Of a stretch of DNA of 64,000 nucleotides, positions 2,795 to 45,364 are shown one piece after another (position 1 is the first letter of the stretch; each line of letters begins with the position of its first letter). The position numbers and the translations under genes are program-made. The notes under the pieces were generated by a model. It searched no databases and had not been told where the DNA came from. It saw only the letters and a program-made list of their open reading frames with translations. The DNA is from Escherichia phage JS10, in the sequence record EU863409, one strand, 5' to 3'.

Positions 2795-2796
2795 CC

Positions 2797-18717: not shown

Positions 18718-18727
18718 CCTTAAAACA

Positions 18728-18748
18728 AAAAAGGAGCCGAAGCTCCTT
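18728..18748 (-). terminator. UUCG-loop hairpin after gene 41
   Basis: aaaaaaggagccgaagctcc. Confidence 0.55.
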
Positions 18749-20186: not shown

Positions 20187-20500
20187 CTCTTAGATTTAAT
20201 TTTATCCAGTTCTTCTTGTATTTGCATTGTAACACATTTTTCTACATGAAGCGCTAGCTCTTCTTTTCGGTCTTCGGAAGGCGTTCCGAAATCAACCGAC
20301 ACTTTTCCATCTTTCTCAATAACAATATTCATCACATAAACGATGTGAGCAGTGCCATCGGGTAATGTAAGCATAATTTCCTGCTTAACAGAACCCATTG
20401 ACTTACGGATTATATCTAACGATTTCTCATAATAACGAGGGTCACTAGGACCCTCTTCAGTATCTTTAACAAAATTATCTAAATCAGATAAATCAGTCAT
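20171..20500 (-). CDS. 40: gp40-like protein (by position)
   Basis: 109-aa ORF between uvsX and 41. Confidence 0.5.
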   Translation of the reverse strand: MTDLSDLDNFVKDTEEGPSDPRYYEKSLDIIRKSMGSVKQEIMLTLPDGTAHIVYVMNIVIEKDGKVSVDFGTPSEDRKEELALHVEKCVTMQIQEELDKIKSKRWWKW

Positions 20501-21665
20501 CTAAATCCATCTCTTCTAAATCGTTTTCGATATCAGCTGCGCTTTGAGTGTCGCCACTCAATTTAACTGCAACGTTCTTAGAGACACGAGAGTTAATAAG
20601 GTCGTTCACCGCATCATCGACTTCTTTAATAGAATTAATTGCACCGAGCTTATACTTATTCTCGATTGCTTCACGGAATGGAGCATGTTTAAACAGCGGT
20701 CCCCAGAACTCGACACAATCGGTAGCTTTAGCACGCCATGATTTTTCTTCTTGAACCATTTCACCCGTGGTTTCGTCAAGGAATGCACGATTATACCAAC
20801 CAGCTTTAGGTTTCACGACAAAGCCAATATCAGTAGCCATTTCGAGCAGACCACTAAATGGGTCGATACCACCTTCAAAGTTCACAGTAATTGGGAACGT
20901 TGATTTCTCTTTAACAGTACGAGATTTTTCGGCCTTCAGGGTGAAGTCATAACCAGTGAGCTCGGTACCATCTTTAACCTGACGTTTAGAGATAAAGAAT
21001 ACGGTAGAAGCAGAGTACAGAATACCAGTACCACCACCCATAATCTCTTTAGGATACATTCCACCAATTTCCATAGCCGTATGGTTAATTGCTACACAAG
21101 GAATATCCTTGATAGTCAGATAAGGTGTTACGATACGGAACAGAGATTTCAGAGACTTAGCACGAGTCATATCACCTACAACTTTCTCGTTCAACGCATC
21201 TTCGGTTTCTTTCTTAGAAGCAGTGTTACCGATGGAGTCGATAAAGATAATAACCTTTTCGCCACGAGTAATTTCTTCTAATTGGTTGGTCATGTCAACC
21301 TTCAGTTGTTCGACTGACTGGATTGGTGTATGAACCACACGTTCCAGGTCAACACCCATTGAACGGAAATAAGATTCTGAAGCACCGAACTCAGAGTCAT
21401 AGAACAAGCAAATTGCGTCTGGATATTTCTTCATATATGCCGCAACCATAGTTAATCCAAACAACGTTTTAAAGTGTTTAGACGGTGCAGCAAAGATTGT
21501 CAAACCTGATTGTAAGCCTGCATTCAACGCACCGCCCAATGCAATATTAAGCATAGGAATACGAGTAGGAACTTCGTCACGACCATTAAACAATTTAGAT
21601 TTGGTCAGGTCGGCAGTCATTTTAGAAGTAGAAGCTTTAATCAAACGGGATTTTAAATCAGACAT
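20493..21665 (-). CDS. uvsX: UvsX recombinase (RecA-like)
   Basis: 390 aa; RecA-fold ATPase; T4 UvsX is about 391 aa. Confidence 0.85.
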   Translation of the reverse strand: MSDLKSRLIKASTSKMTADLTKSKLFNGRDEVPTRIPMLNIALGGALNAGLQSGLTIFAAPSKHFKTLFGLTMVAAYMKKYPDAICLFYDSEFGASESYFRSMGVDLERVVHTPIQSVEQLKVDMTNQLEEITRGEKVIIFIDSIGNTASKKETEDALNEKVVGDMTRAKSLKSLFRIVTPYLTIKDIPCVAINHTAMEIGGMYPKEIMGGGTGILYSASTVFFISKRQVKDGTELTGYDFTLKAEKSRTVKEKSTFPITVNFEGGIDPFSGLLEMATDIGFVVKPKAGWYNRAFLDETTGEMVQEEKSWRAKATDCVEFWGPLFKHAPFREAIENKYKLGAINSIKEVDDAVNDLINSRVSKNVAVKLSGDTQSAADIENDLEEMDLDD

Positions 21666-21867: not shown

Positions 21868-22761
21868 CTAGCATACTACGTCCTCATAACGTGGCATTTC
21901 GTATTCAGAATGAATATTGGCACCGAAATAAATGAATTCAGCCAGACCAGGATGGAATACTAAACCTGGGTTCTCATGATAAATGATATGTGGTCTTGAT
22001 TTCAGAATTTGATAATATTCAACCTTACTCGGTTTGAATTTAATAATCTCTACATCAGGACGATAGTCTTCGCGCTTAAATGAATCATTCGGGTCGGTGA
22101 TATAAAGACGAGCACCTTCAGCGGCAGCTTGGTCTACAACTCTTTCGAATTGATAGCACTTATCCGAAATACGGAATGGATGGAAAATACCATCAATTTT
22201 AATAGGCGCTAGACCTTCAGAGTAACGCTCAATTACTGCAGGATTAATTACCTTTTGGTCTACAAAAATCTTATCAGAGGATGCACCTCGTGACACCAGG
22301 ACGTCTTTCTGGCATTGATTCAGGACTGTAGTATAAAGTGAACGTTCAACCGAAGCCACATCAATATCAATGAACTCGTCGATATAATAACGAGGAACTT
22401 CAGGGTCCATTGTGATATTAAAGTTGAATTGTACAGTGTGAGCACCATCATAACCGGTGATATCGGTTACCAGTCCTGAGCAATCGTAGTATTCGATTAG
22501 TGAATCGACTACAAACTCATTTTCAGACCAGAAATGTTTACGGGTTTCATAAGCATTTTCTTTATACCAAAGTGGTACGAAATTCAGTTCTGGGAATAAT
22601 TCAATGCATTCTTTGATATCGCTCGAATTTCTAGGATAAGCCAGATAATCACCTGGACGAGCACGATTTAAATGGAGTTGAAAATTACCGTCCTTAAGGA
22701 CGGCATATTCACCTGTTTCGTAACTACGCATACTGAAAATAGGAACGATAAACAAACTCAT
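21868..22761 (-). CDS. hypothetical protein at the T4 beta-glucosyltransferase locus; candidate DNA-sugar transferase
   Basis: 297 aa; sits between uvsX and gene 42 where T4 has bgt, but does not resemble T4 bgt. Confidence 0.5.
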   Translation of the reverse strand: MSLFIVPIFSMRSYETGEYAVLKDGNFQLHLNRARPGDYLAYPRNSSDIKECIELFPELNFVPLWYKENAYETRKHFWSENEFVVDSLIEYYDCSGLVTDITGYDGAHTVQFNFNITMDPEVPRYYIDEFIDIDVASVERSLYTTVLNQCQKDVLVSRGASSDKIFVDQKVINPAVIERYSEGLAPIKIDGIFHPFRISDKCYQFERVVDQAAAEGARLYITDPNDSFKREDYRPDVEIIKFKPSKVEYYQILKSRPHIIYHENPGLVFHPGLAEFIYFGANIHSEYEMPRYEDVVC

Positions 22762-23456
22762 TTCAGGAAACCTCGGACGTAGTCAAAATCACGTTCAAAC
22801 ACGTGTGCACTTACCATGGTGTGAGAATATGTACCTAAACCGACACCACACTGTTCAGCAATAAATGCCATCAGTTTACCCTGCAGATAGAAATCCAGCT
22901 GCATAACAACAGCACAGTTTTGTGAACGCATATGGGTGTGTGCATACAAACGTCCGTCACGAATATAATACGTTACCGAATCGGTGCACGGATATTCTAA
23001 GGATTCGTCAGAATCAAGGAGGGCTTGGTCTTGTTCTTGGAGAATCTGGAACACAACTCTTCGCGAGTTAGCCTTTTCTTTAAGCTCTTTAAGTAGGGCT
23101 GGGAGTTGGGCCACAATTCGAGGTCCATAGAAAGTGTTGAAGTTTGCAGGCAATACGTCACTTTTCGGCTTATCAATGAACTTAGCAACATTAGGATATT
23201 CCTTAAATGCTTCGGCGGCGTCAGTACCACCAGAAATCATAAATTTCCAAAAGGATTCGGCATATTCATAACTAATACGATTGATACGTGGGTCGGTGAA
23301 TTTATAGGTGCTTGCATCCAGTACTTCTACAGAAGCAGAACCAATTTCATAACAACGTCCGATACGAGAATCAACTGCAAACTGTGGAGCTTCCAGGATT
23401 TCTTCGTTCATTTGTTTAAATGCATTTTCAAAACTAACAGCGGTAATGTGTTTCAT
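22758..23456 (-). CDS. 42: dCMP hydroxymethylase (thymidylate-synthase fold)
   Basis: 232 aa; NSRRVVFQ...THMRSQNCAVVMQLDFY...HVFERDF align with T4 gp42 blocks. Confidence 0.8.
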   Translation of the reverse strand: MKHITAVSFENAFKQMNEEILEAPQFAVDSRIGRCYEIGSASVEVLDASTYKFTDPRINRISYEYAESFWKFMISGGTDAAEAFKEYPNVAKFIDKPKSDVLPANFNTFYGPRIVAQLPALLKELKEKANSRRVVFQILQEQDQALLDSDESLEYPCTDSVTYYIRDGRLYAHTHMRSQNCAVVMQLDFYLQGKLMAFIAEQCGVGLGTYSHTMVSAHVFERDFDYVRGFLK

Positions 23457-23989
23457 TTATTCACCTTATTTTCAATATATTCGTTCAGACGTTTTAATTC
23501 TACCATATCAACATTAAGCAAATTATTATGGCCGTCATGATTTAAGATTTTAAACACGTTTTCAAAACATGTTTCGTATTGCCGGATAGTTAGGTTGAAC
23601 TCATCTTTGGTTAATTTAATAAGGTCGTCTTCGAAGTCTTCGTCTAATGGATTACGAGTTAAAATAACCTCGATAACGTTAAATTCGGATTTAAACCCTT
23701 TCCAATCTTCCAGTTCTACATAAGGGTCCATTTCACCACGAAGGAATCCTGAGTAAACAATATTACTTGGATAACCACGGTCAAGGATATAAACGAAATT
23801 AGGGTCTAAAAACTTATACAGAGTTTCAACTAAAGCCTTATCGTTATCGGTTCCTAATGAAATACACTTGCCATTAATCTTTTTAGGAAAATCAATAAGG
23901 CGGTATTTCTTATTGGATAACAGATTTTTAATTAAAGTGGACTTCCCGGAATTATCCGGGCCGTCTATAACAATGATTTTTGGATTCAT
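23453..23989 (-). CDS. P-loop kinase, thymidylate-kinase-like
   Basis: 178 aa; Walker A IVIDGPDNSGKST typical of Tmk/dNK-type kinases. Confidence 0.55.
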   Translation of the reverse strand: MNPKIIVIDGPDNSGKSTLIKNLLSNKKYRLIDFPKKINGKCISLGTDNDKALVETLYKFLDPNFVYILDRGYPSNIVYSGFLRGEMDPYVELEDWKGFKSEFNVIEVILTRNPLDEDFEDDLIKLTKDEFNLTIRQYETCFENVFKILNHDGHNNLLNVDMVELKRLNEYIENKVNK

Positions 23990-24384
23990 GGATGATAGGC
24001 CTTATAACTATCAAGAGTTCCTTCACGAACCATTTCTTTAAAGTGGTCAGGACGGATTGCTCGGTCATCGATGATAAAAGTATAACTCGGCTTGTGTGTA
24101 AGCAAATTGTGATATTTCAATCCAATTTTTTCAAGGTTCTTAACCAATGCAGGAACTACTTCAACCAAGATTCGACCTGGGCCACATGAAGTCATGCCAC
24201 GGGCGGTGAACAATGTAATCTCGTACCCTTCATCATAAAGCTTATTAATCATGGACACCATTTCGGTGTCCGGTTTAAAGTTCTCATAATCACGGTCATG
24301 GTTCCAAATCGTGATTGTGTTATCGATATCAAAACATAAGTGTGGCTTATTTTCTACTCGATGCGACATTAAATTTTCTTCCAT
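23986..24384 (-). CDS. HAD-superfamily phosphatase
   Basis: 132 aa; motif I CFDIDNTIT (DxDxT). Confidence 0.6.
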   Translation of the reverse strand: MEENLMSHRVENKPHLCFDIDNTITIWNHDRDYENFKPDTEMVSMINKLYDEGYEITLFTARGMTSCGPGRILVEVVPALVKNLEKIGLKYHNLLTHKPSYTFIIDDRAIRPDHFKEMVREGTLDSYKAYHP

Positions 24385-26042
24385 TGTTTGTGGAGTTCAG
24401 TAGAACCTGTAGGTTTATATTTTACACCAGTTTCCTGGTCAAGCAAAACCCACTTATCAGGACAACGAGTAATAATTTGGGCCGTAATAGGGTCACGAAC
24501 TTCATCGACAAATTCACCTGTAATAAGCTTACGCTTACGAGGATGCCGCTTCAGCAGCACACTCAGTTGGTACAAACCGTTATAATAAGCACCCAGAGCT
24601 TTCAGAGGGTTATTCTTAAAGTAACCTGCCAGAGCCATCCAAATAACAGCAATCCAGAGCTTGTGCTTAAATGTGCACATAGGGATATCGTCTAAAGGCA
24701 TAACCTTTTCGATATCAACGAATACACGAGTTCCGTTACGAGTTAATCCACCCCATAGAGGGTCTGAGTTAAATTTGTCATAGCCATCGATAGAATAAAG
24801 CACCTTAGCTTCATCATAAATCGCAGGGCCTTTAGAACTATTACCGAAATAACCGCGTGGGTCGATGATTTTAATATCACCTTCGTCCGACAGCATAATA
24901 TTACTGTAGTGCGGGTCACCATGAATAAGTTGGTACGGTTCTTTATGTTCAGACAGAATTTCTAGTGCATGGCGGAGAAGTTTTTCAGGGTCGCCTACTT
25001 TGAAATCGTTAACATGGGTAATGCCTTGTGGAGCAAAGCCTTCAATCAATCCGGCAATAGAAGCATTACGAATAAGGACCTTGTCCAATACTTCTTTCTT
25101 AACATCAGAATACCATTGCTCATCGGACGGGTTATCGATAGTTCCACCGAATGAACGTAATGCACTAATGACCTTATAAACCATGAGGACTTTAGTTTCT
25201 TTGGACATAAACCGGTAGGCATCTGCCATGGTCCGACCAAAGATACGTTCCATTTTAATGAATTCGCCTGGAGAAAAGTCTACAATGCTAGGAACGAATT
25301 CAGAATCAATAGAATTATACCAATTGATTTCTTTAGATTGAATTTCTTTACCTAAATCGTTAGTTGGTACTTTAATAGCCAGATTCTCGGTGAATTCTAA
25401 TTTATTAAATTCACGGTTAATTTCAGATTCTTCATGGGCCTTAGCCAGTTTCAATTTGTCACCGACATCAACTACAAAGTCCAGTTTACGTTCAGTCAAA
25501 TAGACCATTGAATCCAGGTTATCAGCAAGGTCTTCACCGTAATTAGAACGGTCGAAACCTGTCCAATTAGCCACCTGATACAAACCAACTACACCGCCAC
25601 CGGTACCAATTTCACGTAAGTACGGTTCTTCAAATGTAAAACGACAATCGGTTCCATAAGTATAGCAGTAGTCGTTACCCCACTCAACTTTATGACCTTC
25701 AGGAATGATGTCACACCAGTTAAACAAGACATTATGACCAATGATATCTTCGGCAATGCAATCGATAGCATGAGCTGAACCATTAGCAACATCAACGTTA
25801 CGAATAGTGAATTTAGGCTTATCACCAGTAATCATGTTAATGGATTTAATATAGCCTTTAACGAGGTCGTTAAATTTGCTGTGAATAACCAGAATAATTT
25901 CATCTGATTGGTTACTATACAAATCATACAAATGCTTTAATACTGTATGTTGTTTGTAGTTAACCAATACCTTCGGGATTTCGTTAGTAATTGGGTACAA
26001 ACGTGAGCCAAGACCTGCGCCTAAAATAACAACCTTTTTCAT
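24369..26042 (-). CDS. bifunctional sugar-1-phosphate nucleotidyltransferase / APH-fold sugar kinase
   Basis: N-terminus VVILGAGLGSRL (NTP-transferase G-x-G-x-R); C-terminus HGDPHYSNIML...IIDPRGYFG (APH/choline-kinase catalytic loop); start trimmed to ATG 26040-26042 with GAGGAA RBS. Confidence 0.65.
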   Translation of the reverse strand: MKKVVILGAGLGSRLYPITNEIPKVLVNYKQHTVLKHLYDLYSNQSDEIILVIHSKFNDLVKGYIKSINMITGDKPKFTIRNVDVANGSAHAIDCIAEDIIGHNVLFNWCDIIPEGHKVEWGNDYCYTYGTDCRFTFEEPYLREIGTGGGVVGLYQVANWTGFDRSNYGEDLADNLDSMVYLTERKLDFVVDVGDKLKLAKAHEESEINREFNKLEFTENLAIKVPTNDLGKEIQSKEINWYNSIDSEFVPSIVDFSPGEFIKMERIFGRTMADAYRFMSKETKVLMVYKVISALRSFGGTIDNPSDEQWYSDVKKEVLDKVLIRNASIAGLIEGFAPQGITHVNDFKVGDPEKLLRHALEILSEHKEPYQLIHGDPHYSNIMLSDEGDIKIIDPRGYFGNSSKGPAIYDEAKVLYSIDGYDKFNSDPLWGGLTRNGTRVFVDIEKVMPLDDIPMCTFKHKLWIAVIWMALAGYFKNNPLKALGAYYNGLYQLSVLLKRHPRKRKLITGEFVDEVRDPITAQIITRCPDKWVLLDQETGVKYKPTGSTELHKQWKKI

Positions 26043-26102
26043 TATCTGTTCCTCAAGTGAATGTAGGTACATTATACACTATTTTTAATAAATTTCTATT
26101 GC

Positions 26103-26603
26103 TTAAATCTTATCTTTACCGTATTCCATGCACTGTTCTACTGCAGCAGGCACTTTGGACTTAAGCTTGTTGATTTGTTTCTTATAATCACGAGCCTTAT
26201 CGAAGCTCTCGGTTTCAAGCATTTCGTAATAACGGGCCTCGTGGACGGAAATCTGTAGATTGATATGGTTTACACACATAGAATACAGTTTCTGCTTTTT
26301 GTACAAATCATCTTGGCGCTTCATTTCTGCCTGGTGTTTGGCTAGTACCGCTTCACGCTTAGACTCTTGTTCACGTTGGAATTCGATTTCCCTTTGAGCA
26401 TATTTTGCACAGTTATTACCGCATTGATTATTAGCTCGGGTATACACAAGTCCAGAACCAGCACGGAATTTCATTTCGCCGTCGAATTGTTTCTGTTCAG
26501 CTGCGATACGAGCTTTACCAACTTCATCAGCAGAAACTGCATCACCGTATTGGACTGCGCAACCTGATAGGAGCATACTCATTGCGATAATTAACTTTTT
26601 CAT
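26103..26603 (-). CDS. putative lipoprotein
   Basis: 166 aa; signal peptide with lipobox LSGC. Confidence 0.55.
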   Translation of the reverse strand: MKKLIIAMSMLLSGCAVQYGDAVSADEVGKARIAAEQKQFDGEMKFRAGSGLVYTRANNQCGNNCAKYAQREIEFQREQESKREAVLAKHQAEMKRQDDLYKKQKLYSMCVNHINLQISVHEARYYEMLETESFDKARDYKKQINKLKSKVPAAVEQCMEYGKDKI

Positions 26604-33399: not shown

Positions 33400-35078
33400 T
33401 CTAACACCGTGAATCGCCCAACTTTCTTCATTTGAAGATGTTGGCCATAAGCTTGTGGGTCATGGTCTCGGTGAGAGATAATGAACACGTTCGTATCCTC
33501 AAGGCTATTCAAGATGGTTGCAATGCTCTTAACGCCTTCAGAATCCGTGGCACTATCAAAAACTTCATCAAGAATTAACGTGCTGATATTAACACCTGAT
33601 ACCTTAGAAGCAATATCACGCCATGTAAAAAGAAGTGCGATATCAATACGTGCTTTCTCACCCTGTGAAAATGAAGCATAACTAAAGTCTTCACGTCCAC
33701 GTGATTTAATCGTCTCATTGAATTCTTCGTCTAGGGTAAAGACGTAGTCCGCTTCCATAATCTTCAAATAAGAATTAATCTGCTTATTAAAGATAGGAAT
33801 GTATTTCTTAATAATGGAACCTTTAATACCAGTATCCTTCAACATTTCTGTCAGAATTCCACGATGATATTTTTCCATTACCAAGGACGATTTGGTAGAG
33901 ACGATTTTATCAAGCTCTGCTTGAAGCGCAGCAATCTCTTCGGCATTACTTACGAACTCAGCTGCTGCCTGGTCAATTAATACCTTAACCTTTTTGGCTT
34001 TCTCTACGGCAGTAATGGCTTGCTGCTTATGAGTAGCTATCTGAGATTTAATAGCCAACGCTTTATTGCGTTGTTCGGTTACTTGGTCTTTAATGAGCTT
34101 GAGCTCTTGGTATTGCTCATTAATCTTATCCAAAGATTTTTGAAGCTCAAAGTTTTTATCCTTAATTTTAGTAAGGATATTACCATGCTCTTCTAACCCT
34201 TGCATACACGTAGGGCAGTGACCACCAGTTTCGTATAACTTAACCACCTTTGTAAAGGTTGCCATATCATTTTTGATTGCAAATCCTTTATTACTCAGGT
34301 CACTCATGGAGTCGCTAGGGTCATCATCTACGATAACATTGAGTAATTCATCAGTCAGGGATTCTATGCTCGCCTTCGCAGTCCTGGCTTCTTTAACGAG
34401 CTCATCATACATTAATTGTAGGCGGGCGGCGTTCTCGCCGGATAATTTACGTTGACGTTCTTCGTTGTCATTATAAATTTTAATTTGTTGGGTAATAGAA
34501 TCTTGCTTAACGTCTATTACTTGGATTTGGCTATTAGTCTCACGAATTAAAGATTTGTTCAACTTATCCATATCCGCTAATACAGAAACCTCTAAGAGGT
34601 CTTCGACGAGTTTTCTTCTTGCAGGAGTGGATAGGCCCATAAAAGGGGTATATCCAGCTGTGCCGAGTACGACAATTTGTTTGAAGCTTGCATAGGACAT
34701 TCCGATAAGCTGTTCAAATTCCGCTTGGAAGTCTTTACTGCTGGCAGATTCATCAAGACGTTCACCGTCACAAGAGATTTCAAAAACGTTGGGTTTTTGC
34801 CCGCGTTTGATATAGTATTCTTTGCCATCATATTCCATCCACAGTTCGACCAAAAGGTCTTTCTTGTTACTTGAGTTAATCAACTGCCCTTTCTTAACAT
34901 CACGAAAAGGCTTACCGAACAGAGCAAATGTTACAGCTTCAAGGAATGTTGATTTCCCTGCACCATTTTTACCAGTGACTAAGGTCTTTTGGACCTTATC
35001 AAGTTGGATTGTAATAGGCTGCTGCCCTACCGACATAATATTTTTATACGTTACTTTTTTTAACTTAAAAGTCTTCAT
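33396..35078 (-). CDS. 46: recombination nuclease ATPase subunit (Rad50/SbcC-like)
   Basis: 560 aa from ATG 35076-35078 (MKTFKLKKV); Walker A GKNGAGKST; closely matches T4 gp46. Confidence 0.9.
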   Translation of the reverse strand: MKTFKLKKVTYKNIMSVGQQPITIQLDKVQKTLVTGKNGAGKSTFLEAVTFALFGKPFRDVKKGQLINSSNKKDLLVELWMEYDGKEYYIKRGQKPNVFEISCDGERLDESASSKDFQAEFEQLIGMSYASFKQIVVLGTAGYTPFMGLSTPARRKLVEDLLEVSVLADMDKLNKSLIRETNSQIQVIDVKQDSITQQIKIYNDNEERQRKLSGENAARLQLMYDELVKEARTAKASIESLTDELLNVIVDDDPSDSMSDLSNKGFAIKNDMATFTKVVKLYETGGHCPTCMQGLEEHGNILTKIKDKNFELQKSLDKINEQYQELKLIKDQVTEQRNKALAIKSQIATHKQQAITAVEKAKKVKVLIDQAAAEFVSNAEEIAALQAELDKIVSTKSSLVMEKYHRGILTEMLKDTGIKGSIIKKYIPIFNKQINSYLKIMEADYVFTLDEEFNETIKSRGREDFSYASFSQGEKARIDIALLFTWRDIASKVSGVNISTLILDEVFDSATDSEGVKSIATILNSLEDTNVFIISHRDHDPQAYGQHLQMKKVGRFTVLE

Positions 35079-35328
35079 CGTTATAAGCATCCTTGATGCA
35101 TGATTCAGCCATATGAATTAATGTTTCTGGAGTATCATCTACCATTACATTAAAGCTAAATTCCACAGCCCAATCGGTAGCAACATAAACTTTAATAAGC
35201 TCGCCGGTATCACGAGTGCTCACGGCTTCAAACCAGAACTTAATTGTACTAGGTTGTCCATCATCATCAATAACTATACAGTCGTGTTCCAGTTCAAGTC
35301 CCGATTTTTTGAATTCATCTAAAGTCAT
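35065..35328 (-). CDS. hypothetical protein (46.1 position)
   Basis: 87-aa ORF. Confidence 0.5.
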   Translation of the reverse strand: MTLDEFKKSGLELEHDCIVIDDDGQPSTIKFWFEAVSTRDTGELIKVYVATDWAVEFSFNVMVDDTPETLIHMAESCIKDAYNDEDF

Positions 35329-36347
35329 CGTGTAACCTCATTATAAAGTTGTGCGGCCATAGTCTTAAGGGCTTTAACGTCTTCTTCAGTGTGGCCATCA
35401 GGAAGGGCGTCGATATAATCATACATCATATCCAAGAGGGATTTAACTTCATCTTCCTCTTCAGAATCATCGATATCAACACTATTATCTACCTTAGACA
35501 CAATACGTAAAGAGTGAACAACCTTTTCAAGCTCTGATTCGAACTTAGTAAGACCGTCATCAATTTTATCGACTATAACACGAACTGCGATATTTGTAAA
35601 ATCTTTGTAATCGATAGTCGCGTTAGGATAATGAATCTTACGGTGCCAACAGGTTTCATTAATGATGAAATCCATTTTATGAGTTTCGGTATCGAAAATC
35701 CAGAAACCACGAGGGTCGTTCTCATCGCCTGCAGTAAGGGTCCATGGAGTACCAATGTACTTGACGTTTGCTGCATCAGAAATAGTATGGAAGTGGCCTG
35801 ACCAAACTTGCTTATACTTTTTAAGGAAATCAGGTTCTAAACCGTGAGATTTCATTCCTTTATAGAAATAGAAACCATTTAATTCCCAATGACCAATACA
35901 GAAATCTGCTGTGGTATTTTTGATATGGTCCATGATATCGGTCGTGTTTTCTTCACACATCCATGGAATCAAATCAATTTCGGTGCCATCAAAGTTAACC
36001 GTAGTAGGTTTTTCAATAACCTTGATATGGTCATATTTACCGAGAACTTCAGAAGCAGCATTAGGAGTCAAGGTATTTTTGTAGTGCATATCATGATTAC
36101 CAACAATGGTATACATGGTAATGCCATTAGCTTTAAGCAAATCAGAGATTTCGCGAGCGAATTCCATACACTTATGGGTAATTGCTTTACGAACGTCAAA
36201 GATATCACCGTATTGAATCCATACGGTAATACCATTTGCTTTAGAATAATCAATAGCGTCTTGGATACCTTGACGTTGGATATTTTGTACCCACACATCA
36301 TCGGCCTTCACTCCAAGGTGCCAGTCACCTGTGTTTAATATTTTCAT
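35325..36347 (-). CDS. 47: recombination nuclease subunit (Mre11/SbcD-like)
   Basis: starts MKILNTGDWHLG as T4 gp47; track start 36374 trimmed to ATG 36345-36347. Confidence 0.9.
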   Translation of the reverse strand: MKILNTGDWHLGVKADDVWVQNIQRQGIQDAIDYSKANGITVWIQYGDIFDVRKAITHKCMEFAREISDLLKANGITMYTIVGNHDMHYKNTLTPNAASEVLGKYDHIKVIEKPTTVNFDGTEIDLIPWMCEENTTDIMDHIKNTTADFCIGHWELNGFYFYKGMKSHGLEPDFLKKYKQVWSGHFHTISDAANVKYIGTPWTLTAGDENDPRGFWIFDTETHKMDFIINETCWHRKIHYPNATIDYKDFTNIAVRVIVDKIDDGLTKFESELEKVVHSLRIVSKVDNSVDIDDSEEEDEVKSLLDMMYDYIDALPDGHTEEDVKALKTMAAQLYNEVTR

Positions 36348-36487
36348 AAGCCGAGCACCGTTATCGCAATGCAAAATAAAATTATTGAGATGAACCCATC
36401 AGGAGTAGAAAAGAATCCTATCCAACAGGCTCGTGTGAATGTGTAGAATGCCATGAATAACACGACATATCCTAAAAGTAATTCCAT
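36344..36487 (-). CDS. small membrane protein (47 aa)
   Basis: MELLLGYVVLFMAFYTF...; GAGGAG RBS; ATGA overlap with gene 47 start. Confidence 0.4.
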   Translation of the reverse strand: MELLLGYVVLFMAFYTFTRACWIGFFSTPDGFISIILFCIAITVLGL

Positions 36488-36530
36488 ATGTTCTCCTCAG
36501 TTGGTTCATTTTATCATCCGAATATAAAGC

Positions 36531-36550
36531 AAAAAAGGAGCCTAAGCTCC
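36531..36550 (-). terminator. intrinsic terminator-like hairpin
   Basis: aaaaaaggagcctaagctcc. Confidence 0.45.
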
Positions 36551-36804
36551 TTTACCAATTAATACCCCGTACAGAGGTTCATGAGAAGACCTGAACTTGA
36601 TAGGCTTATAGGTAATAGTACCTTCATTTTCCGCTTTAATACGAGCAGCTTCAAATTTAAGTATCATCTCATTTTTGTCAGATTTAATCTTATCAAAATC
36701 CATCGAATTCGTCATTCATATAACCTCTTAAACTTTTTCGTATTCGTCATTCATAAGCTTAAAAATCCGGATGTTCATCTTTCATTAGCCACCTGTCCAC
36801 GTTA

Positions 36805-37089
36805 TCATCGTTGCCACCATTTCTTAAGTTGGTGTGAATCCACCCAAACCTTGGCTACAGGCTCAATCCGAAAAATTTCATCGGAATATTGACCCACCAT
36901 TTTGTATTCGGTTTCAGTCTGCTTAATACAAATATTACCGTATGAGCGAAGTCTGAAGGCGGCTCCAATAAGAAGCCGTTTAAAGGGTTTATTTACTAGC
37001 GCCATTGATAATTTCCCAAATCTGTTTACGCGTAGTTTCCCACATAACTCTAACGATTTCGTCAGTAGTTGGTTGACGGTAAATACCAC
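36805..37089 (-). CDS. hypothetical protein
   Basis: 94-aa ORF; real start probably internal because of overlap with next ORF. Confidence 0.35.
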   Translation of the reverse strand: MVFTVNQLLTKSLELCGKLRVNRFGKLSMALVNKPFKRLLIGAAFRLRSYGNICIKQTETEYKMVGQYSDEIFRIEPVAKVWVDSHQLKKWWQR

Positions 37090-37300
37090 GTAATTTAATT
37101 ATAGCATATTTGTAAGCTTCGAAATTGTTTTCGAGAACAGCGCCCTGAGCATGTGTATTAAGACGCTTAATTTCACGGGCATTCTTTTTAAGAATTTTGG
37201 CAGCTTGGGAAGCGGCTTCTTTAGCATTATTCTCTTCTAAACGCTTCTGGGCTTCTTCAATTTGCTCTTCGGTCAATTGAGAAATGTCGGTGCTTTGCAT
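36989..37300 (-). CDS. hypothetical protein
   Basis: 103-aa ORF. Confidence 0.45.
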   Translation of the reverse strand: MQSTDISQLTEEQIEEAQKRLEENNAKEAASQAAKILKKNAREIKRLNTHAQGAVLENNFEAYKYAIIKLRGIYRQPTTDEIVRVMWETTRKQIWEIINGASK

Positions 37301-37301
37301 A

Positions 37302-37550
37302 TTAATCCTTGTAATTCAGTTTTATATAAAAATCTTCGTCGGTAACGTGATAGTTATAAGTTAATGTTCCTTTTTCAGCTTTAATTTCTACCGAATCAGG
37401 GTGTTTTGGGTCTATTACAATAGGAAGCTTGGCAATATCCTTAAGATACATTTTAAGAACATAAGGAATTGCCGAATACTCTCCATCTACTTCTTCTAAA
37501 AGGCCTACCAGGTTAATCTTGAGTTCCATATAAAAAATCCAGCTCACCAA
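37302..37550 (-). CDS. hypothetical protein
   Basis: 82-aa ORF. Confidence 0.45.
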
Positions 37551-38070
37551 CTTTAGATTCGGCGCTCTTATCAGACCCTGGCGCTTTAACTAAAGAGGTT
37601 TCATACTGAGTCATTTTGTCGTAAATATCCTGGATAAAAGTTTCATCTGCGATACCTACCATGTCGTCGTCATTGGCGTCATAAACGTTATGGACGAAGT
37701 AGCTGTATTTCTTTGCCATTTCTTTACGTTCTTTCTTGATACGCTGAACAAAGGCATTAAAACAAGCCATAGTGATATATGCATGTGGGTTGTCGTATTT
37801 TGTTTCGTCGAAGTTATGAAGACCTTTAATAGAGGCTTCGATTCCATCAGCAATCATTTCTTGCTTCCAAGATTGGGTATATCCGGAGAAGTTGAAACGC
37901 TTAGAAAGGCCTTCAGCAATGAGCATAATAGCCAAGCCGATAACGTCGTTCTGACGAACTATTTTATTAGGGTCGGTATTTTCTCGGAGTTCCGTTTTCC
38001 ACTGGGTAATGGCTTTCAGAAGCTCCTTATTATTTACATAGTTATTTTTAGTCAGTTTAATTTCGGTCAT
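37513..38070 (-). CDS. 55: late-transcription sigma factor
   Basis: 185 aa; long blocks near-identical to T4 gp55 ([52 protein letters not shown]). Confidence 0.9.
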
Positions 38071-40499: not shown

Positions 40500-40776
40500 A
40501 GGAAATAACTCCTTGGTAGTCCCAAGTTTTGATAACTTCGTCTTCATTAGTTCCATATGGGATGTAAATCTGGATAAGGAACCCAGTATCATCAAAAGAG
40601 AAGTAGACGGTAGGTTTAATACCATGAATCTCTGACAGAGCATAGATATCTTTAAGGTCTTCTTCCTTATCTTTAAAGAATTCTGGGTTCAGGTCACAGT
40701 CATGGAAGTACCATTCTTGGCCAAACTTGTCCCAAGCAGCCCAATCAGTAGCTACATACTCTTCAAAACGTTTCAT
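40480..40776 (-). CDS. hypothetical protein
   Basis: 98-aa ORF. Confidence 0.45.
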   Translation of the reverse strand: MKRFEEYVATDWAAWDKFGQEWYFHDCDLNPEFFKDKEEDLKDIYALSEIHGIKPTVYFSFDDTGFLIQIYIPYGTNEDEVIKTWDYQGVISCGPKVN

Positions 40777-41000
40777 TCTTTCACCTTCATCATTTTAGAA
40801 ATAACACTATGAACAGACTGGATTCGTTTTTCGAACTCAGAATCTTCAAGACCCTTTTCAGTACTCAGCGCACCAATCATCACAAACAGCAATCCAAATG
40901 GGATAACCAGGATTAAAAGGCACACAATAAACAGGACAAATGTAATATTGGCCAGGATATCAGAAACAGCATTACGAAATTTATTCATACGATAGTCCAT
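40773..41000 (-). CDS. small membrane protein
   Basis: 75 aa with a central hydrophobic helix. Confidence 0.45.
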   Translation of the reverse strand: MDYRMNKFRNAVSDILANITFVLFIVCLLILVIPFGLLFVMIGALSTEKGLEDSEFEKRIQSVHSVISKMMKVKE

Positions 41001-41094
41001 GTATTAGTTACAACAAATAACCATTGAGCAGGATACTCAACACCCATGCGCCGGATAATATCATTCATAGATTCGGTTAAGGCATAAAAATTAA

Positions 41095-41568
41095 TCATTT
41101 AAGCGATTTCCTCAGTTGTTTTTTAAATGAATCGACCATTTGTTTCTTTGTGTCAGATTCATTATAAGTCATTCCATGTGAAAGCATTTCAGCAATCATT
41201 TCTTCCTTACCTAATCTACTGAACTCTTTGGTTTTATCAGGAACGAAATTAGGATGGATATTGTTTTCAGTATAATCAGATTTCAGATAGACCAGCAAAT
41301 TCTCTAACCATTCGAGGTAGTCAACATTTTGACCTTTAAGACCAGAACGGTTGAACTTATGCTTCATTTGTCCTTCTGCAGCATTGCACAGGTTACATAG
41401 TAAACCACGAACCTTACCAGCTTTTGGCCCGCTCAATTCATGGTCGTGGTCAAGGTGGTTACTTTGAACATCAGGGTTTAATTCACGTTTACAAATCAAA
41501 CACTTACCACATTGTGCATCATAAAGTTTTTGTTTTTCTTCTTTGTATAATTTGCCGGTCAACAACAT
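41095..41568 (-). CDS. 49: endonuclease VII (Holliday-junction resolvase)
   Basis: 157 aa; MLLTGKLYKEEKQK...NHLDHDHEL...GLLCNLCNAAEG near-identical to T4 gp49. Confidence 0.9.
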   Translation of the reverse strand: MLLTGKLYKEEKQKLYDAQCGKCLICKRELNPDVQSNHLDHDHELSGPKAGKVRGLLCNLCNAAEGQMKHKFNRSGLKGQNVDYLEWLENLLVYLKSDYTENNIHPNFVPDKTKEFSRLGKEEMIAEMLSHGMTYNESDTKKQMVDSFKKQLRKSLK

Positions 41569-43190: not shown

Positions 43191-43392
43191 CTCGCTCAAA
43201 TCGGTGTTTACAATGGCGGCATTTATACTGAAGCGGATTATGACGCCATTGAACCAACTGGACCTGTTCAGTTCCACATTCAGGACAATTTGGAACATTC
43301 TTAGAAGCTTTTTCACGACGTTCGACAATTTTAATAATTTGATTCCAATCAGGAATAGTTTGGTCAATATCGTCAGCTAATTGGTATTTCAT
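43171..43392 (-). CDS. zinc-ribbon protein
   Basis: 73 aa; CPECG...CRHC. Confidence 0.45.
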
Positions 43393-44399
43393 TTCAACAG
43401 CTCCAGAGCCTGTTCAAGACGGTCTAAACGATTGGTAGACTCTTCCCAAAGTTTCTTGGCAGCAGTATATTGTCCGGTCAGTTTTTTGTTGATAGCAAGG
43501 GCATCTTTATACGCTTTTTCTAAGGCAACGATTTCCGGTAACTTGGATTTAGTAATTGGTGTATGGGCCATGATAGGGCTGTTCAAGTCGTTAATCAAGT
43601 CTTCTAATGTAGCAGGCTCTTTATCAGTGTTCACAATTTCCTCACATTTTTCTTGGTAAATTTCAGCATCAGTTTTTGGAACAGGGCATTTGATTTCGCG
43701 AACTGTTACTAAAACTTCATATCCTTTCCATCCTAAGTGGTGTTTAACTTCTTGGGTCTCATATTTCTCTACTGTATCCATCAAAGCTAAGGCTTGTTCG
43801 ATAGTATTCAAGGTATCGTAAGCAATATCTTGATACTTTACAACTTCCGCATCATCTTTGGGTTTCCTATTTGGTGACCAGATAACAGAAATAAGCACCT
43901 TTCCTTTATAGCCGTTTGTTTTAATCATGCAATTTGCCATAGGATGAATGGTGCGGCTATCACCGGCAACTACTGTTTTAGTGGCGGCTTTGAGGATTAA
44001 TGCAGAGTTAGCCTTGAATTCAGCGGCCCAACGTTGTGGAAATAAACTACTAGGGTCCATACCTTTAATTTTGACATAACCTTTTATGGTATCACCAAAC
44101 CATTTGTAGCTAACAACATGGCTAGAACCTGGGTGTTTCTCTTTGCCAAACTCTGAAAGGATATCCTTATTAACCAACCGCGAAAGCAGTCGAGAACCTT
44201 TAAATGTATCTACGATATCAGGAATAAACAAGCGGCCCGCGATCTTTTCGATTTCAGCTTTGAAACAGCGCGATAATGCATCATCAATTTGGTCTACCCA
44301 TTTATTGATATTAGAAACTATTACCACATATGGGGTTAATGGAGGGGTATTGGCAGTGATATACGTAGTAAAGGCATTGATGTATTCAGTACGAGTCAT
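43389..44399 (-). CDS. hypothetical protein
   Basis: about 336 aa from ATG 44397-44399 (MTRTEY), downstream of the promoter at 44416-44457. Confidence 0.5.
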   Translation of the reverse strand: MTRTEYINAFTTYITANTPPLTPYVVIVSNINKWVDQIDDALSRCFKAEIEKIAGRLFIPDIVDTFKGSRLLSRLVNKDILSEFGKEKHPGSSHVVSYKWFGDTIKGYVKIKGMDPSSLFPQRWAAEFKANSALILKAATKTVVAGDSRTIHPMANCMIKTNGYKGKVLISVIWSPNRKPKDDAEVVKYQDIAYDTLNTIEQALALMDTVEKYETQEVKHHLGWKGYEVLVTVREIKCPVPKTDAEIYQEKCEEIVNTDKEPATLEDLINDLNSPIMAHTPITKSKLPEIVALEKAYKDALAINKKLTGQYTAAKKLWEESTNRLDRLEQALELLK

Positions 44400-44415
44400 G
44401 ATATTCTCCTCAGTA

Positions 44416-44457
44416 GTTGATAAAAGGATTATACTCCATCCATCCTTGGATGTAAAC
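44416..44457 (-). promoter_or_regulatory. early-promoter cassette
   Basis: minus strand GTTTAC-N17-TATAAT (perfect -10), GAGGAG RBS in leader. Confidence 0.6.
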
Positions 44458-44458
44458 A

Positions 44459-45364
44459 TTATTTTAGAGCTAATAGTGCCGCACTGAGCTTGTCACGCTG
44501 GTTTTCCATATTCTTGATGCGGGTCAATACGTCTTGAATACTCTTTTTCTCATCTTCAATCTGACCATTTAAACGGTGGATTGATTCCTGAATGCTATCT
44601 GCATAATAGGTCTCAATAGGTTTCATCGTAGGGTTAGTAACAACCAAAGAATTATCAGGTTTAATTTTCCAATGATACGGTTCGGAATTGAATGGACTAG
44701 GCACAGCAGTGGTTTTGAATTTGTCATAGGCTGCATACTGGCCTACGCTGTCACATGATACTGTAGAGGTAGCGATAGATATACGACGTTCCATTTGTGG
44801 GTCCTTTTGTTGAGATTGATAAGGGGTATAAGACAAAAGATATTCACGAGTTAGTTTAACATTAAAATACACTGCATCGGCTCGCCCAGAACAATCAGCA
44901 TATTCATCGGTTGTAACCTTATATGATTCTACAGCCTTAATACGAGTCATTGCTTCTCTGAATAAGGTTTCGAATGCTTCACGAAGGGCCTTATTACCTT
45001 TTGAGGTAGGACGGAAACGAACTTGAATACCGTCAGCCAGAATATTAATGACTAGGTTACGAGCCGTAAAATTAATATTCTTGATATTAACAGGAACCGT
45101 AGAAATACGTCCTGCAGTGGCCAAGAGGTCTTTGATATTAGCTCGCAATGTTGCACCAAACAGGTGGGCTGGGCAACGGCAATAATCGTTCAAAGAACCA
45201 ATATAAGTTCCTTTACGACCTACACCATAAGTATAATTACCATTACAAATATGACCAAAGTCGGCCAGCCGATCGATAGCGATACGACGAGTCGTGTCAT
45301 GGTCGTATATAGAGTATTCTTTACGTGTTTTAATGTTCATATTAAAGTCCAAATAATTTTTCAT
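44459..45364 (-). CDS. hypothetical protein
   Basis: 301-aa ORF. Confidence 0.5.
   Translation of the reverse strand: MKNYLDFNMNIKTRKEYSIYDHDTTRRIAIDRLADFGHICNGNYTYGVGRKGTYIGSLNDYCRCPAHLFGATLRANIKDLLATAGRISTVPVNIKNINFTARNLVINILADGIQVRFRPTSKGNKALREAFETLFREAMTRIKAVESYKVTTDEYADCSGRADAVYFNVKLTREYLLSYTPYQSQQKDPQMERRISIATSTVSCDSVGQYAAYDKFKTTAVPSPFNSEPYHWKIKPDNSLVVTNPTMKPIETYYADSIQESIHRLNGQIEDEKKSIQDVLTRIKNMENQRDKLSAALLALK

What the first reader, a model, noticed from the sequence alone, without database searches (positions are those of the whole stretch)
36344..37550. No alpha-glucosyltransferase between gene 47 and gene 55
T4 carries a-gt (about 400 aa) between 47 and 55. Here that interval (about 1.1 kb) holds only small ORFs, including a 47-aa membrane peptide overlapping the gene 47 start. 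This fits a non-glucosyl DNA modification.
Basis: partly seen in the sequence, partly recalled or inferred. Interest (0 to 1): 0.4.

Follow-up and report, generated by a model that had tools for sequence, protein, structure and literature searches.

The report
Empty a-gt site in JS98-like phage
This T4-like coliphage (a JS98-type Dhakavirus) lacks T4's DNA glucosyltransferase genes and instead carries, 12 kb away in the same window, the RB69-type genes for sugar-coated 5-hydroxycytosine. The gene absence has been in the literature since 2010 and the pathway since 2025-26.

Summary
Between gene 47 (35325..36347, -) and gene 55 (37513..38070, -) lie 1165 bp. They hold only the small T4 genes 47.1, a-gt.2, a-gt.3, a-gt.4 and a-gt.5, in T4 order. 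T4's a-gt and the homing endonuclease mobB are missing, and RB69 and JS98 have the same layout.

No a-gt, b-gt, ba-gt or RB69-ORF003c homologue was found by sequence in the window or in the complete genome of JS98, 97-99% identical over the two stretches compared.

Between uvsX and gene 43 sit:
- a thymidylate-synthase homologue 80% identical to RB69 gp48, with the D169N signature of 5-hydroxy-dCMP synthases;
- a GT-B glycosyltransferase orthologous to RB69 gp46:47 and DLP3 gp79;
- a P-loop kinase, a HAD phosphatase and a bifunctional sugar kinase/nucleotidyltransferase.

The predicted base is mono-arabinosyl-5-hydroxycytosine, not glucosyl-hmC.

This is already known: Petrov 2010 lists JS98 as lacking gt genes, and Lee 2026 lists Dhakaviruses among phages with the arabinosylation cluster.

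One open point remains. Dhaka-, Marfa- and Bragaviruses share a reduced variant with no phage arabinose-5-P isomerase and a divergent sugar-activating enzyme; a second transferase was excluded only for Dhakaviruses. I found no report of the sugar being measured in a Dhakavirus.

The parts
35325..36347 (-). gene 47 (SbcD/Mre11-like recombination nuclease subunit), lower boundary of the interval
   Evidence: 71% identical to T4 gp47 over 341 aa. JS98 annotation.
36344..36487 (-). gene 47.1, a 47-aa predicted membrane peptide; its stop overlaps the gene 47 start (ATGA)
   Evidence: 80% identical to T4 47.1. phrog_6693 E 1e-30. Two hydrophobic segments and the ATGA overlap.
36534..36553 (-). GC-rich hairpin followed by a T run (terminator-like) just downstream of a-gt.2. 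This is the point where T4 carries a-gt + mobB
   Evidence: Terminator scan. The same hairpin occurs in T4 and RB69 at the equivalent place.
36508..36531 (-). TGCTTTA, 11 nt, TAAAAT: resembles a T4 MotA-dependent middle promoter, upstream of 47.1/47 (inferred from consensus only)
   Evidence: Sequence read. T4 has the same motif after a-gt.2 and again after a-gt; RB69 has it once. The consensus is from general knowledge of T4 middle promoters; function not tested.
36542..36715 (-). a-gt.2 homologue (57 aa, DUF5486), function unknown
   Evidence: 58% identical to T4 a-gt.2. Pfam PF17588 E 2e-20.
36805..37005 (-). a-gt.3 homologue (66 aa), function unknown
   Evidence: 45% identical to T4 a-gt.3. 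phrog_1648 E 6e-29.
36989..37300 (-). a-gt.4 homologue (103 aa, DUF2654), function unknown
   Evidence: 43% identical to T4 a-gt.4. Pfam PF10849 E 1e-24.
37302..37529 (-). a-gt.5 homologue (75 aa, DUF5491), function unknown; overlaps the end of gene 55 by 17 nt
   Evidence: 51% identical to T4 a-gt.5. Pfam PF17595 E 1e-18.
37513..38070 (-). gene 55 (late sigma factor), upper boundary of the interval
   Evidence: 78.5% identical to T4 gp55.
21868..22761 (-). GT-B fold glycosyltransferase (297 aa), orthologue of RB69 gp46:47 and DLP3 gp79 (proposed first arabinosyltransferase). It sits where T4 has b-gt
22758..23456 (-). thymidylate-synthase homologue (232 aa) predicted to be a 5-hydroxy-dCMP synthase. 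It occupies the place of T4 gene 42
   Evidence: 79.7% identical to RB69 gp48 and 24.5% to T4 gp42. PDB 9iqu/9iqc E 2e-125. Cys146, L143E, N177D and the diagnostic D169N (criterion from PMC13326640).
23453..23989 (-). P-loop nucleotide kinase (178 aa), homologue of RB69 gp45 and DLP3 gp78
   Evidence: 38-40% identity. phrog_761 'thymidylate kinase' E 1.5e-39. Walker A GPDNSGKST.
23986..24384 (-). HAD-family phosphatase (132 aa), homologue of RB69 gp51, DLP3 gp81 and HY126 AfhF
   Evidence: 62-64% identity. DxDxT motif DIDNT. NCBIfam TIGR01689 capsule biosynthesis phosphatase, E 1e-14, below its cut-off.
24369..26072 (-). bifunctional sugar-1-phosphate nucleotidyltransferase (N-terminal) and APH-like kinase (C-terminal), 567 aa, of the AfhE / RB69 gp52:53 type but a divergent lineage
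   Evidence: Pfam NTP_transferase 13-110 and APH 356-427. 41-45% identical to RB69 and DLP3, while those two are 52-65% alike. 80% identical to Marfavirus and 71% to Bragavirus.
14725..15246 (-). gene 56 dCTPase, which removes dCTP so that the modified dCTP replaces it
   Evidence: 91% identical to RB69 gp56.
2437..3024 (-). gap between rIIA.1 and gene 39, where RB69 carries ORF003c (second arabinosyltransferase); no transferase here
   Evidence: RB69 annotation. No RB69p003 hit in the window or in JS98. The gap holds a 107-aa DUF7367 ORF.

Best explanation
The 47-55 interval is the 'empty' form of the locus where T4 carries a-gt + mobB, as also seen in RB69 and JS98. It holds only five small conserved genes that are named after a-gt by position, not function. 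A hairpin plus a middle-promoter-like motif sit at the exact point where the a-gt-mobB cassette lies in T4.

The phage does not glucosylate hydroxymethylcytosine. It is predicted to replace cytosine with glycosylated 5-hydroxycytosine by these steps:
1. gp56 hydrolyses dCTP to dCMP.
2. The thymidylate-synthase homologue (22758..23456) hydroxylates dCMP to 5-hydroxy-dCMP. Kinases then raise it to the triphosphate, and the polymerase incorporates it.
3. The 567-aa bifunctional enzyme and the HAD phosphatase turn a pentose 5-phosphate into a UDP-pentose. The substrate is most likely host-made D-arabinose 5-phosphate, and the route runs through the 1,5-bisphosphate and the 1-phosphate.
4. The single GT-B transferase (21868..22761) attaches one sugar to the 5-hydroxyl.

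Shown here: the gene content, the orthology, the active-site signature and the fold. Inferred: every enzymatic step, the identity of the sugar and the number of sugars (one).
For: Interval and gt genes:
- The interval holds only T4 47.1 and a-gt.2 to a-gt.5 homologues. The layout is identical in JS98 and RB69.
- No a-gt, b-gt, ba-gt, RB69p003 or DLP3 gp76/77 hit in the window or in the complete JS98 genome by tblastn or phmmer (best E >= 0.01).

The modification cluster:
- The TS homologue is 80% identical to RB69 gp48, which was shown experimentally to make 5-hydroxy-dCMP (PMC13326640). It carries D169N, N177D, L143E and Cys146. It matches PDB 9iqu/9iqc at E 2e-125.
- The HAD phosphatase and the bifunctional NTP-transferase/kinase are homologous to the enzymes reported to make UDP-arabinose in HY126, RB69 and DLP3.
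- gp56 is present.

Literature: Lee 2026 names Dhakaviruses among genera with the syntenic cluster.
Against: - In the literature I could search, I found no chemical analysis of any Dhakavirus DNA.
- The phage has no arabinose-5-phosphate isomerase, unlike RB69 and DLP3.
- Its sugar-activating enzyme is only 41-45% identical to theirs, although those two are 52-65% alike. The sugar could therefore differ.
- The first-transferase family has never shown activity in vitro: Lee 2026 saw none with single enzymes.
- Only 64 kb of this genome is in hand. The rest is inferred from JS98, 97-99% identical over the two stretches compared.
Confidence: 0.8

Rival explanations
1. Same pathway architecture but a different sugar. 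The divergent bifunctional enzyme of Dhaka-, Marfa- and Bragaviruses would activate a pentose or other sugar phosphate other than arabinose 5-phosphate, for example an abundant pentose-phosphate-pathway intermediate. The base would then be a glycosyl-5-hydroxycytosine not yet described.
For: - The 567-aa enzyme shows a bimodal identity distribution over 366 phage records: 79 at >= 60% and 287 at <= 45%.
- The high-identity rows listed are Dhakaviruses, a Marfavirus and a Bragavirus. Klebsiella (25) and Proteus (7) rank among the hosts of phages with this enzyme but not among the ten best-represented with the isomerase, and the Escherichia count falls from 175 to 137.
- The two non-Dhaka loci examined have no isomerase gene.
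- RB69 and DLP3, both proven arabinose users, are 52-65% alike, yet only 41-45% like this enzyme.
Against: - The phosphatase (62-64%), the first transferase (50-70%) and the synthase (71-80%) are ordinary orthologues of the arabinose-pathway proteins.
- The hosts are enterobacteria, which make arabinose 5-phosphate for Kdo synthesis (general knowledge), so loss of the phage isomerase needs no change of sugar.
- Lee 2026 groups Dhakaviruses with arabinosylating phages.
Confidence: 0.13
2. Glucosylation by a non-orthologous enzyme. The 297-aa GT-B transferase would use host UDP-glucose, so the DNA would still be glucosylated even though a-gt and b-gt are missing.
Against: - A dedicated sugar-nucleotide pathway (kinase/nucleotidyltransferase plus phosphatase) sits next to it. 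That would be pointless for UDP-glucose, which the host supplies.
- The orthologues in RB69, DLP3 and related phages accompany arabinose, not glucose.
- The acceptor base is predicted to be 5-hydroxy-, not 5-hydroxymethyl-cytosine.
Confidence: 0.04
3. No sugar at all. The phage would carry bare hydroxymethyl- or hydroxy-cytosine and rely on anti-restriction proteins, as Petrov 2010 considered possible for JS98 and RB69.
For: Absence of all T4-type gt genes. Petrov 2010 left this open.
Against: An intact, highly conserved transferase and sugar-activation genes are present. The transferase has 25 invariant positions over 39 homologues and full-length coverage. The same argument failed for RB69, which proved to be arabinosylated.
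Confidence: 0.02
4. a-gt is present but lies outside the 64-kb window.
For: Only 64 of about 170 kb is available.
Against: - The complete JS98 genome, 97-99% identical over the two stretches compared, has no hit.
- Escherichia-phage rows listed in the sampled a-gt search are all at least 89.8% identical, as expected for Tequatroviruses, and only 2 of 657 records fall between 80% and 90%.
- Petrov 2010 restricts a-gt to T-even-type phages.
Confidence: 0.01

Closest known systems
Escherichia phage JS98 (Dhakavirus JS98, NC_010105), genes 47 to 55 and orf38 to orf42
   Same: 98.7% nucleotide identity over the locus. Same gene order 47, 47.1, a-gt.2, a-gt.3, a-gt.4, a-gt.5, 55. Same uvsX-to-43 cluster.
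   Different: The window lacks gene 46.1, which JS98 has next to gene 46. JS98's annotation calls the cluster genes 'hypothetical', 'thymidylate kinase' and 'phosphoheptose isomerase'.
Escherichia phage RB69 (Mosigvirus): arabinosyl-5-hydroxycytosine pathway (gp45 to gp55 plus gp3)
   Same: The same empty 47-55 interval. Orthologous 5hodCMP synthase (80%), first GT (65-70%), phosphatase (62%), kinase (38%) and bifunctional enzyme (41-44%).
   Different: RB69 also has a second transferase gp3, an arabinose-5-P isomerase gp55, gp49 and the U32-peptidase-like gp50; none is present here or in JS98. Gene order within the cluster differs. RB69 DNA carries one or two arabinoses; one is predicted here.
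Phage T4 47-55 region and glucosyl-hmC system (a-gt, b-gt, gene 42)
   Same: Flanking genes and all five small ORFs are conserved. The logic is the same: dCTPase, a TS-family enzyme, then a GT-B transferase.
   Different: T4 has a-gt + mobB inserted between 47.1 and a-gt.2, and b-gt next to gene 42. T4 gp42 keeps Asp169 and makes hydroxymethyl-dCMP. The sugar donor is host UDP-glucose.
Acinetobacter phage DLP3 (Lazarusvirus) gp76 to gp83
   Same: Orthologues of gp78 to gp82 are present at 40-71% identity.
   Different: DLP3 has three transferases and an isomerase, and makes tri-arabinosyl-5hoC.
Marfavirus (Klebsiella phage VAC36/F48) and Bragavirus (Proteus phage PM2) clusters
   Same: The same divergent lineage of the bifunctional enzyme (80% and 71%) and no phage isomerase at the locus.
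   Different: Both keep the gp50-like gene (83-86% identical to RB69 gp50), which Dhakaviruses lack. Their full genomes were not searched for further transferases.

Membership tests
T4 alpha-glucosyltransferase (a-gt) | An ORF of about 400 aa between 47.1 and a-gt.2 | tested here: not met
   Only 54 nt separate 47.1 and a-gt.2. The largest ORF on the coding strand of the interval is 103 aa.
T4 alpha-glucosyltransferase (a-gt) | Sequence similarity to T4 a-gt anywhere in the genome | tested here: not met
   tblastn and phmmer against the window and whole JS98 give best E 0.027-0.18 on short chance segments. The profile of the 297-aa GT family against T4 a-gt gives hhalign probability 0.2%.
T4 beta-glucosyltransferase / T2-type beta-alpha-glucosyltransferase | Sequence similarity to T4 b-gt or RB14 ba-gt, normally between uvsX and gene 42 | tested here: not met
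   No hit better than E 0.026. The position is occupied by the 297-aa GT.
5-hydroxy-dCMP synthase (thymidylate synthase superfamily; RB69 gp48, DLP3 gp80) | Thymidylate synthase domain with the catalytic Cys (E. coli ThyA C146) | tested here: met
   Pfam PF00303 E 3.6e-13, above its cut-off. The Cys is aligned in YPCTD.
5-hydroxy-dCMP synthase (thymidylate synthase superfamily; RB69 gp48, DLP3 gp80) | N177D (dCMP rather than dUMP substrate) and L143E/D | tested here: met
   The motif HMRSQNCAVVMQLD has Asp at the 177 position, and Glu precedes YPC. Criteria from PMC13326640.
5-hydroxy-dCMP synthase (thymidylate synthase superfamily; RB69 gp48, DLP3 gp80) | D169N, the residue proposed as diagnostic for hydroxylating members | tested here: met
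   Asn at the 169 position, as in RB69 gp48. T4 gp42, E. coli ThyA and JS98 td keep Asp. Criterion from PMC13326640.
5-hydroxy-dCMP synthase (thymidylate synthase superfamily; RB69 gp48, DLP3 gp80) | Flavin-dependent conversion of dCMP to 5-hydroxy-dCMP | not testable with these tools
   Activity is inferred from 80% identity to the characterised RB69 enzyme and E 2e-125 to PDB 9iqu/9iqc.
First DNA arabinosyltransferase (RB69 gp46:47, DLP3 gp79) | Orthology and position next to the synthase gene | tested here: met
   65-70% identical to RB69 and 49.8% to DLP3. Its start overlaps the stop of the synthase gene.
First DNA arabinosyltransferase (RB69 gp46:47, DLP3 gp79) | GT-B (two Rossmann-like domains) glycosyltransferase fold | tested here: met
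First DNA arabinosyltransferase (RB69 gp46:47, DLP3 gp79) | Transfer of arabinose from UDP-arabinose to 5-hydroxycytosine | not testable with these tools
   In Lee 2026, reactions with individual DLP3 GTs gave no arabinosylation; RB69 gp46:47 was not reported as assayed.
AfhE-type bifunctional arabinose-5-P kinase / UDP-arabinose pyrophosphorylase (RB69 gp52:53, DLP3 gp82) | N-terminal nucleotidyltransferase plus C-terminal APH-like kinase in one protein of about 560 aa | tested here: met
   Pfam NTP_transferase at 13-110 and APH at 356-427. Full-length alignment to DLP3 gp82.
AfhE-type bifunctional arabinose-5-P kinase / UDP-arabinose pyrophosphorylase (RB69 gp52:53, DLP3 gp82) | Close similarity to the characterised arabinose enzymes (same substrate) | tested here: inconclusive
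   Only 41-45% identical, below the 52-65% between RB69 and DLP3. It forms a separate lineage with the Marfa- and Bragavirus enzymes.
Complete RB69-type arabinosylation cluster | Phage-encoded arabinose-5-phosphate isomerase (RB69 gp55, DLP3 gp83) | tested here: not met
   No hit in the window or in JS98 (best E > 1).
Complete RB69-type arabinosylation cluster | Second or third transferase (RB69 gp3, DLP3 gp76/77) | tested here: not met
   No significant hit: best E 0.01 on NrdC.4, which hhalign did not link to the first-GT profile. In the phage collection, homologues fall at >= 95% or < 60% identity, with none in between where Dhakavirus orthologues would be expected.

The most novel reading that the evidence does not exclude
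Dhakaviruses, with Marfa- and Bragaviruses, carry a reduced and divergent form of the glycosyl-5-hydroxycytosine pathway. They have no phage arabinose-5-phosphate isomerase and a separate lineage of the sugar kinase/nucleotidyltransferase; in Dhakaviruses there is also only one transferase. The least ordinary reading the evidence allows is that this lineage activates a different sugar, so that these phages carry a cytosine modification not yet described. The ordinary alternative is mono-arabinosyl-5hoC made from host arabinose 5-phosphate.
Probability: 0.13. Interest if true: 0.55.

Novelty: already known. Interest (0 to 1): 0.18.

Why it matters
DNA hypermodification decides which restriction, CRISPR and type IV defence systems a therapeutic or model phage can escape. 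It also decides whether the DNA can be cut, cloned or sequenced normally.

For this window, the practical result is a corrected annotation. The gene usually labelled 'dCMP hydroxymethylase / thymidylate synthase' is a predicted 5-hydroxy-dCMP synthase. The 'hypothetical protein' beside it is the DNA glycosyltransferase. The 'a-gt.x' genes have nothing to do with glucosylation.

The only forward-looking value lies in the isomerase-less variant with a divergent sugar-activating enzyme (single-transferase in Dhakaviruses). I found no report of its sugar being measured.

Tried and rejected
- Remnants of a-gt or mobB in the interval: none.
- A hidden glycosyltransferase among the larger unassigned ORFs of the window (nrdC.4, orf86, nrdC.6, nrdC.10, nrdC.11, orf120, orf122 and others): Pfam, PHROG and NCBIfam gave no GT family.
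- A weak phmmer hit of DLP3 gp77 to NrdC.4 (E 0.01) was not supported by profile comparison with the first-GT family (probability 0.2%). I did not model NrdC.4.
- Sequence-level kinship between the 297-aa GT family and T4 a-gt: none. The link is fold-level only.
- PDB sequence search of the 297-aa protein: nothing.
- Published chemistry on Dhakavirus DNA: not found.
- Mahler 2025 (Cell Host Microbe) and the He et al. HY126 paper are not in the library, so their content is cited only through Lee 2026.
- The sigma-70 promoter scan of the interval found fewer sites than the shuffles (3 against 6.5) and is not informative for T4-type middle or late promoters.
Full report
**Identity of the window.** The window is the first ~64 kb of a T4-like coliphage of the genus Dhakavirus. 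The segment 35000-38500 is 98.7-98.8% identical to phages UP19, JS98 and IME281. Bases 1-25000 are 97.4% identical to JS98 over 96% of their length, starting at rIIA as JS98's record does. G+C is about 39% throughout.

**The observation.**
- Gene 47 ends the interval at 36347: ATG start, 71% identical to T4 gp47. Gene 55 begins it at 37513: 78.5% identical to T4 gp55.
- The 1165 bp between them are 88% coding.
- They contain five ORFs on the minus strand: 36344..36487, 36542..36715, 36805..37005, 36989..37300 and 37302..37529.
- These are homologues of T4 47.1, a-gt.2, a-gt.3, a-gt.4 and a-gt.5 (80, 58, 45, 43 and 51% identity). They belong to families of unknown function: phrog_6693, DUF5486, phrog_1648, DUF2654 and DUF5491.
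- In T4 the same interval is 3152 bp, because a-gt (400 aa) and the HNH homing endonuclease mobB lie between 47.1 and a-gt.2.
- In the window those two genes are replaced by 54 nt, with no remnant.
- JS98 and RB69 have the same 'empty' layout.
Its stop overlaps the gene 47 start as ATGA.

**The junction.**
- The 54-nt junction carries a GC hairpin with a T run (36553..36534).
- It is followed by TGCTTTA, 11 nt, then TAAAAT (36531..36508). This resembles the MotA-box middle-promoter consensus of T4; the consensus is from general knowledge and function was not tested.
- T4 has the same hairpin-plus-motif module twice, once after a-gt.2 and once after a-gt, so the modules flank the a-gt-mobB cassette. 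RB69 and the window have it once.
- This fits a cassette gained or lost between repeated regulatory modules. I did not pursue which state is ancestral.

**Are there glucosyltransferases elsewhere?**
- I took T4 a-gt and b-gt, the RB14 (T2-type) beta-alpha-gt, RB69 ORF003c and DLP3 gp76/gp77 from annotated records.
- I searched the window and the assembled complete JS98 genome by tblastn, and by phmmer against all six-frame ORFs.
- Nothing was found: best E-values were 0.01-0.2 on short segments.
- Pfam, PHROG and NCBIfam scans of the larger unassigned ORFs of the window gave no glycosyltransferase family.
- In the phage collection, T4 a-gt homologues occur in 657 records: 502 at >= 90% identity, 2 at 80-90%, 143 at 60-80% and 10 below 60%. 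The rows listed are Tequatrovirus-type phages and, at about 66%, Klebsiella phages. No Dhakavirus appeared among the 30 sampled rows.
- This agrees with Petrov et al. 2010. They restrict a-gt to T-even-type phages and name RB69 and JS98 as phages with genes 42 and 56 but without glucosyltransferase genes (PMC2993671).

**What the phage has instead.** T4 carries segA, b-gt and gene 42 between uvsX and imm/gene 43. At the same place, after uvsX (20493..21665), the window has five genes.

1. *Thymidylate-synthase homologue, 22758..23456.*
   - It is a thymidylate-synthase family protein (Pfam PF00303).
   - It is 79.7% identical to RB69 gp48 and 71% to DLP3 gp80, but only 24.5% to T4 gp42.
   - It matches PDB entries 9iqu, 9iqc and 9ir2 at E 2e-125.
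   - Lee et al. 2026 showed that RB69 gp48 and DLP3 gp80 convert dCMP to 5-hydroxy-dCMP, with oxygen from O2 and a flavin cofactor (PMC13326640).
   - The same paper shows that RB69 DNA carries arabose linked directly to 5-hydroxycytosine, not arabinosyl-hmC. It proposes Asn at E. coli ThyA position 169 as diagnostic of hydroxylating members.
   - In my alignment the window protein reads HMRSQNCAVVMQLD, exactly like RB69 gp48. That gives D169N, N177D, L143E and Cys146. T4 gp42, E. coli ThyA and JS98 td keep Asp169.

2. *297-aa protein, 21868..22761.*
   - It has no Pfam or NCBIfam match.
   - It is 65-70% identical to RB69 ORF046c plus ORF047c, a single gene split by a sequencing error according to Lee 2026. 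It is 49.8% identical to DLP3 gp79.
   - An AlphaFold2 model built on 39 homologues is confident (pLDDT 94.4, pTM 0.89).
   - No sequence-level relation to T4 a-gt is detectable.

3. *P-loop kinase, 23453..23989.* It is 38-40% identical to RB69 gp45 and DLP3 gp78.

4. *HAD phosphatase, 23986..24384.* It has the motif DIDNT and is 62-64% identical to RB69 gp51 and DLP3 gp81, the AfhF type.

5. *567-aa bifunctional protein, 24369..26072.* It has an N-terminal sugar-1-phosphate nucleotidyltransferase domain and a C-terminal APH-like kinase domain. This is the architecture of HY126 AfhE, RB69 gp52:53 and DLP3 gp82.

Gene 56 (dCTPase) is also present at 14725..15246, 91% identical to RB69's. Lee 2026 names Dhakaviruses among the genera with this syntenic cluster.

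**Mechanism proposed (inferred from orthology).**
- gp56 supplies dCMP.
- The TS homologue hydroxylates it.
- Kinases and the polymerase place 5-hydroxycytosine in DNA.
- The bifunctional enzyme and the phosphatase convert a pentose 5-phosphate into a UDP-pentose, through the 1,5-bisphosphate and the 1-phosphate.
- The single GT-B enzyme attaches one sugar to the 5-hydroxyl.

**How this phage differs from RB69 and DLP3.**
- It lacks the second transferase (RB69 gp3; the rIIA.1-gene 39 gap at 2437..3024 holds only a DUF7367 ORF). It also lacks the arabinose-5-phosphate isomerase (gp55), gp49 and the U32-peptidase-like gp50.
- One transferase predicts one sugar. Lee 2026 says the same of phage Thanatos, which has a single transferase and is mono-arabinosylated.
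- Without a phage isomerase, arabinose 5-phosphate would have to come from the host's Kdo pathway. This is general knowledge and was not tested.
- The bifunctional enzyme is unusually divergent: 41-45% identical to both RB69 and DLP3, although those two are 52-65% alike.
- Across 366 phage records its identity to the window protein is bimodal: 79 records at >= 60% and 287 at <= 45%. The high-identity rows listed are Dhakaviruses, Klebsiella Marfaviruses at about 80% and a Proteus Bragavirus at about 71%.
- The isomerase occurs in 276 records. Its Escherichia count (137) equals that of RB69 gp3 homologues. Klebsiella and Proteus phages are not among its ten best-represented groups.
- The Marfavirus VAC36 and Bragavirus PM2 loci have no isomerase gene, although they keep gp50 at 83-86% identity.
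- So a distinct enzyme lineage appears to go together with loss of the phage isomerase. This comes from aggregate counts and two loci, not a per-record comparison.
- Two explanations fit: adaptation to scarce host-made arabinose 5-phosphate, or, less likely, a change of sugar. I found no chemical analysis of any Dhakavirus DNA.

**Verdict.**
- The gene absence in JS98-type phages was published in 2010.
- The replacement pathway was worked out in RB69, DLP3 and HY126 in 2025-26, with Dhakaviruses listed by comparative genomics.
- The residual interest is the unmeasured sugar of the reduced, isomerase-less variant.

Noticed in passing
window 36508..36553 (-); L004 (T4) about 16586..16624 and 18681..18731: T4 carries the module 'GC hairpin + TTGCTTTATA...TAAAAT/TATAAT' (middle-promoter-like) twice, flanking the a-gt-mobB cassette. 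The window and RB69 carry it once at the empty site. This suggests the cassette was gained or lost between repeated regulatory modules.
   Followed up: partly
window 24369..26072 (-): The bifunctional sugar kinase/nucleotidyltransferase forms a lineage (Dhaka-, Marfa-, Bragavirus; >= 71% identity) well separated from the RB69/DLP3 lineage (<= 45%). By aggregate counts and two loci, that lineage goes with absence of a phage arabinose-5-phosphate isomerase.
   Followed up: partly
window 2423..2746 (-): A 107-aa ORF matching Pfam DUF7367 (E 3e-44) lies in the rIIA.1-gene 39 gap. JS98's annotation leaves this gap empty, and RB69 carries its second arabinosyltransferase (ORF003c) there.
   Followed up: partly
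window 26103..26603 (-): A 166-aa ORF with a lipoprotein-like N-terminus (MKKLIIAMSMLLSGC) and a coiled, charged remainder lies between the sugar-activation gene and imm, at the gene-43 end of the cluster where RB69 has the isomerase gene. It matches phrog_1754; function unknown.
   Followed up: no
window 35065..35328 versus L001 (JS98) 1576..1788: The window, like phage UP19, lacks gene 46.1 (213 bp), which JS98 has between genes 46 and 46.2. This accounts for the ~210-bp length difference (3709 vs 3501 bp) between the JS98 match and the query.
   Followed up: partly
window about 40773..41568; JS98 annotation in L006, L007 and L008: Gene 55.8 is followed directly by gene 49. No anaerobic ribonucleotide reductase genes nrdG/nrdD are annotated here or anywhere in JS98. 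In RB69 nrdG follows 55.8, as I recall it also does in T4.
   Followed up: no
L011 8687..9844 and L012 9850..11004: The U32-peptidase-like gene (RB69 gp50) is 83-86% identical between RB69, a Marfavirus and a Bragavirus, higher than the 76-78% of the synthase at the same loci. It is nevertheless absent from the Dhakavirus (window and JS98), and none is annotated in the DLP3 locus. Its role in the pathway is unclear.
   Followed up: partly
window 43389..44459 (-): NrdC.4 (356 aa; no Pfam or NCBIfam family; phrog_1435, unknown function) gave a weak phmmer hit to DLP3 gp77 (E 0.01 for the JS98 copy). Comparison with the profile of the first-GT family did not support a link. No structure was modelled.
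   Followed up: partly
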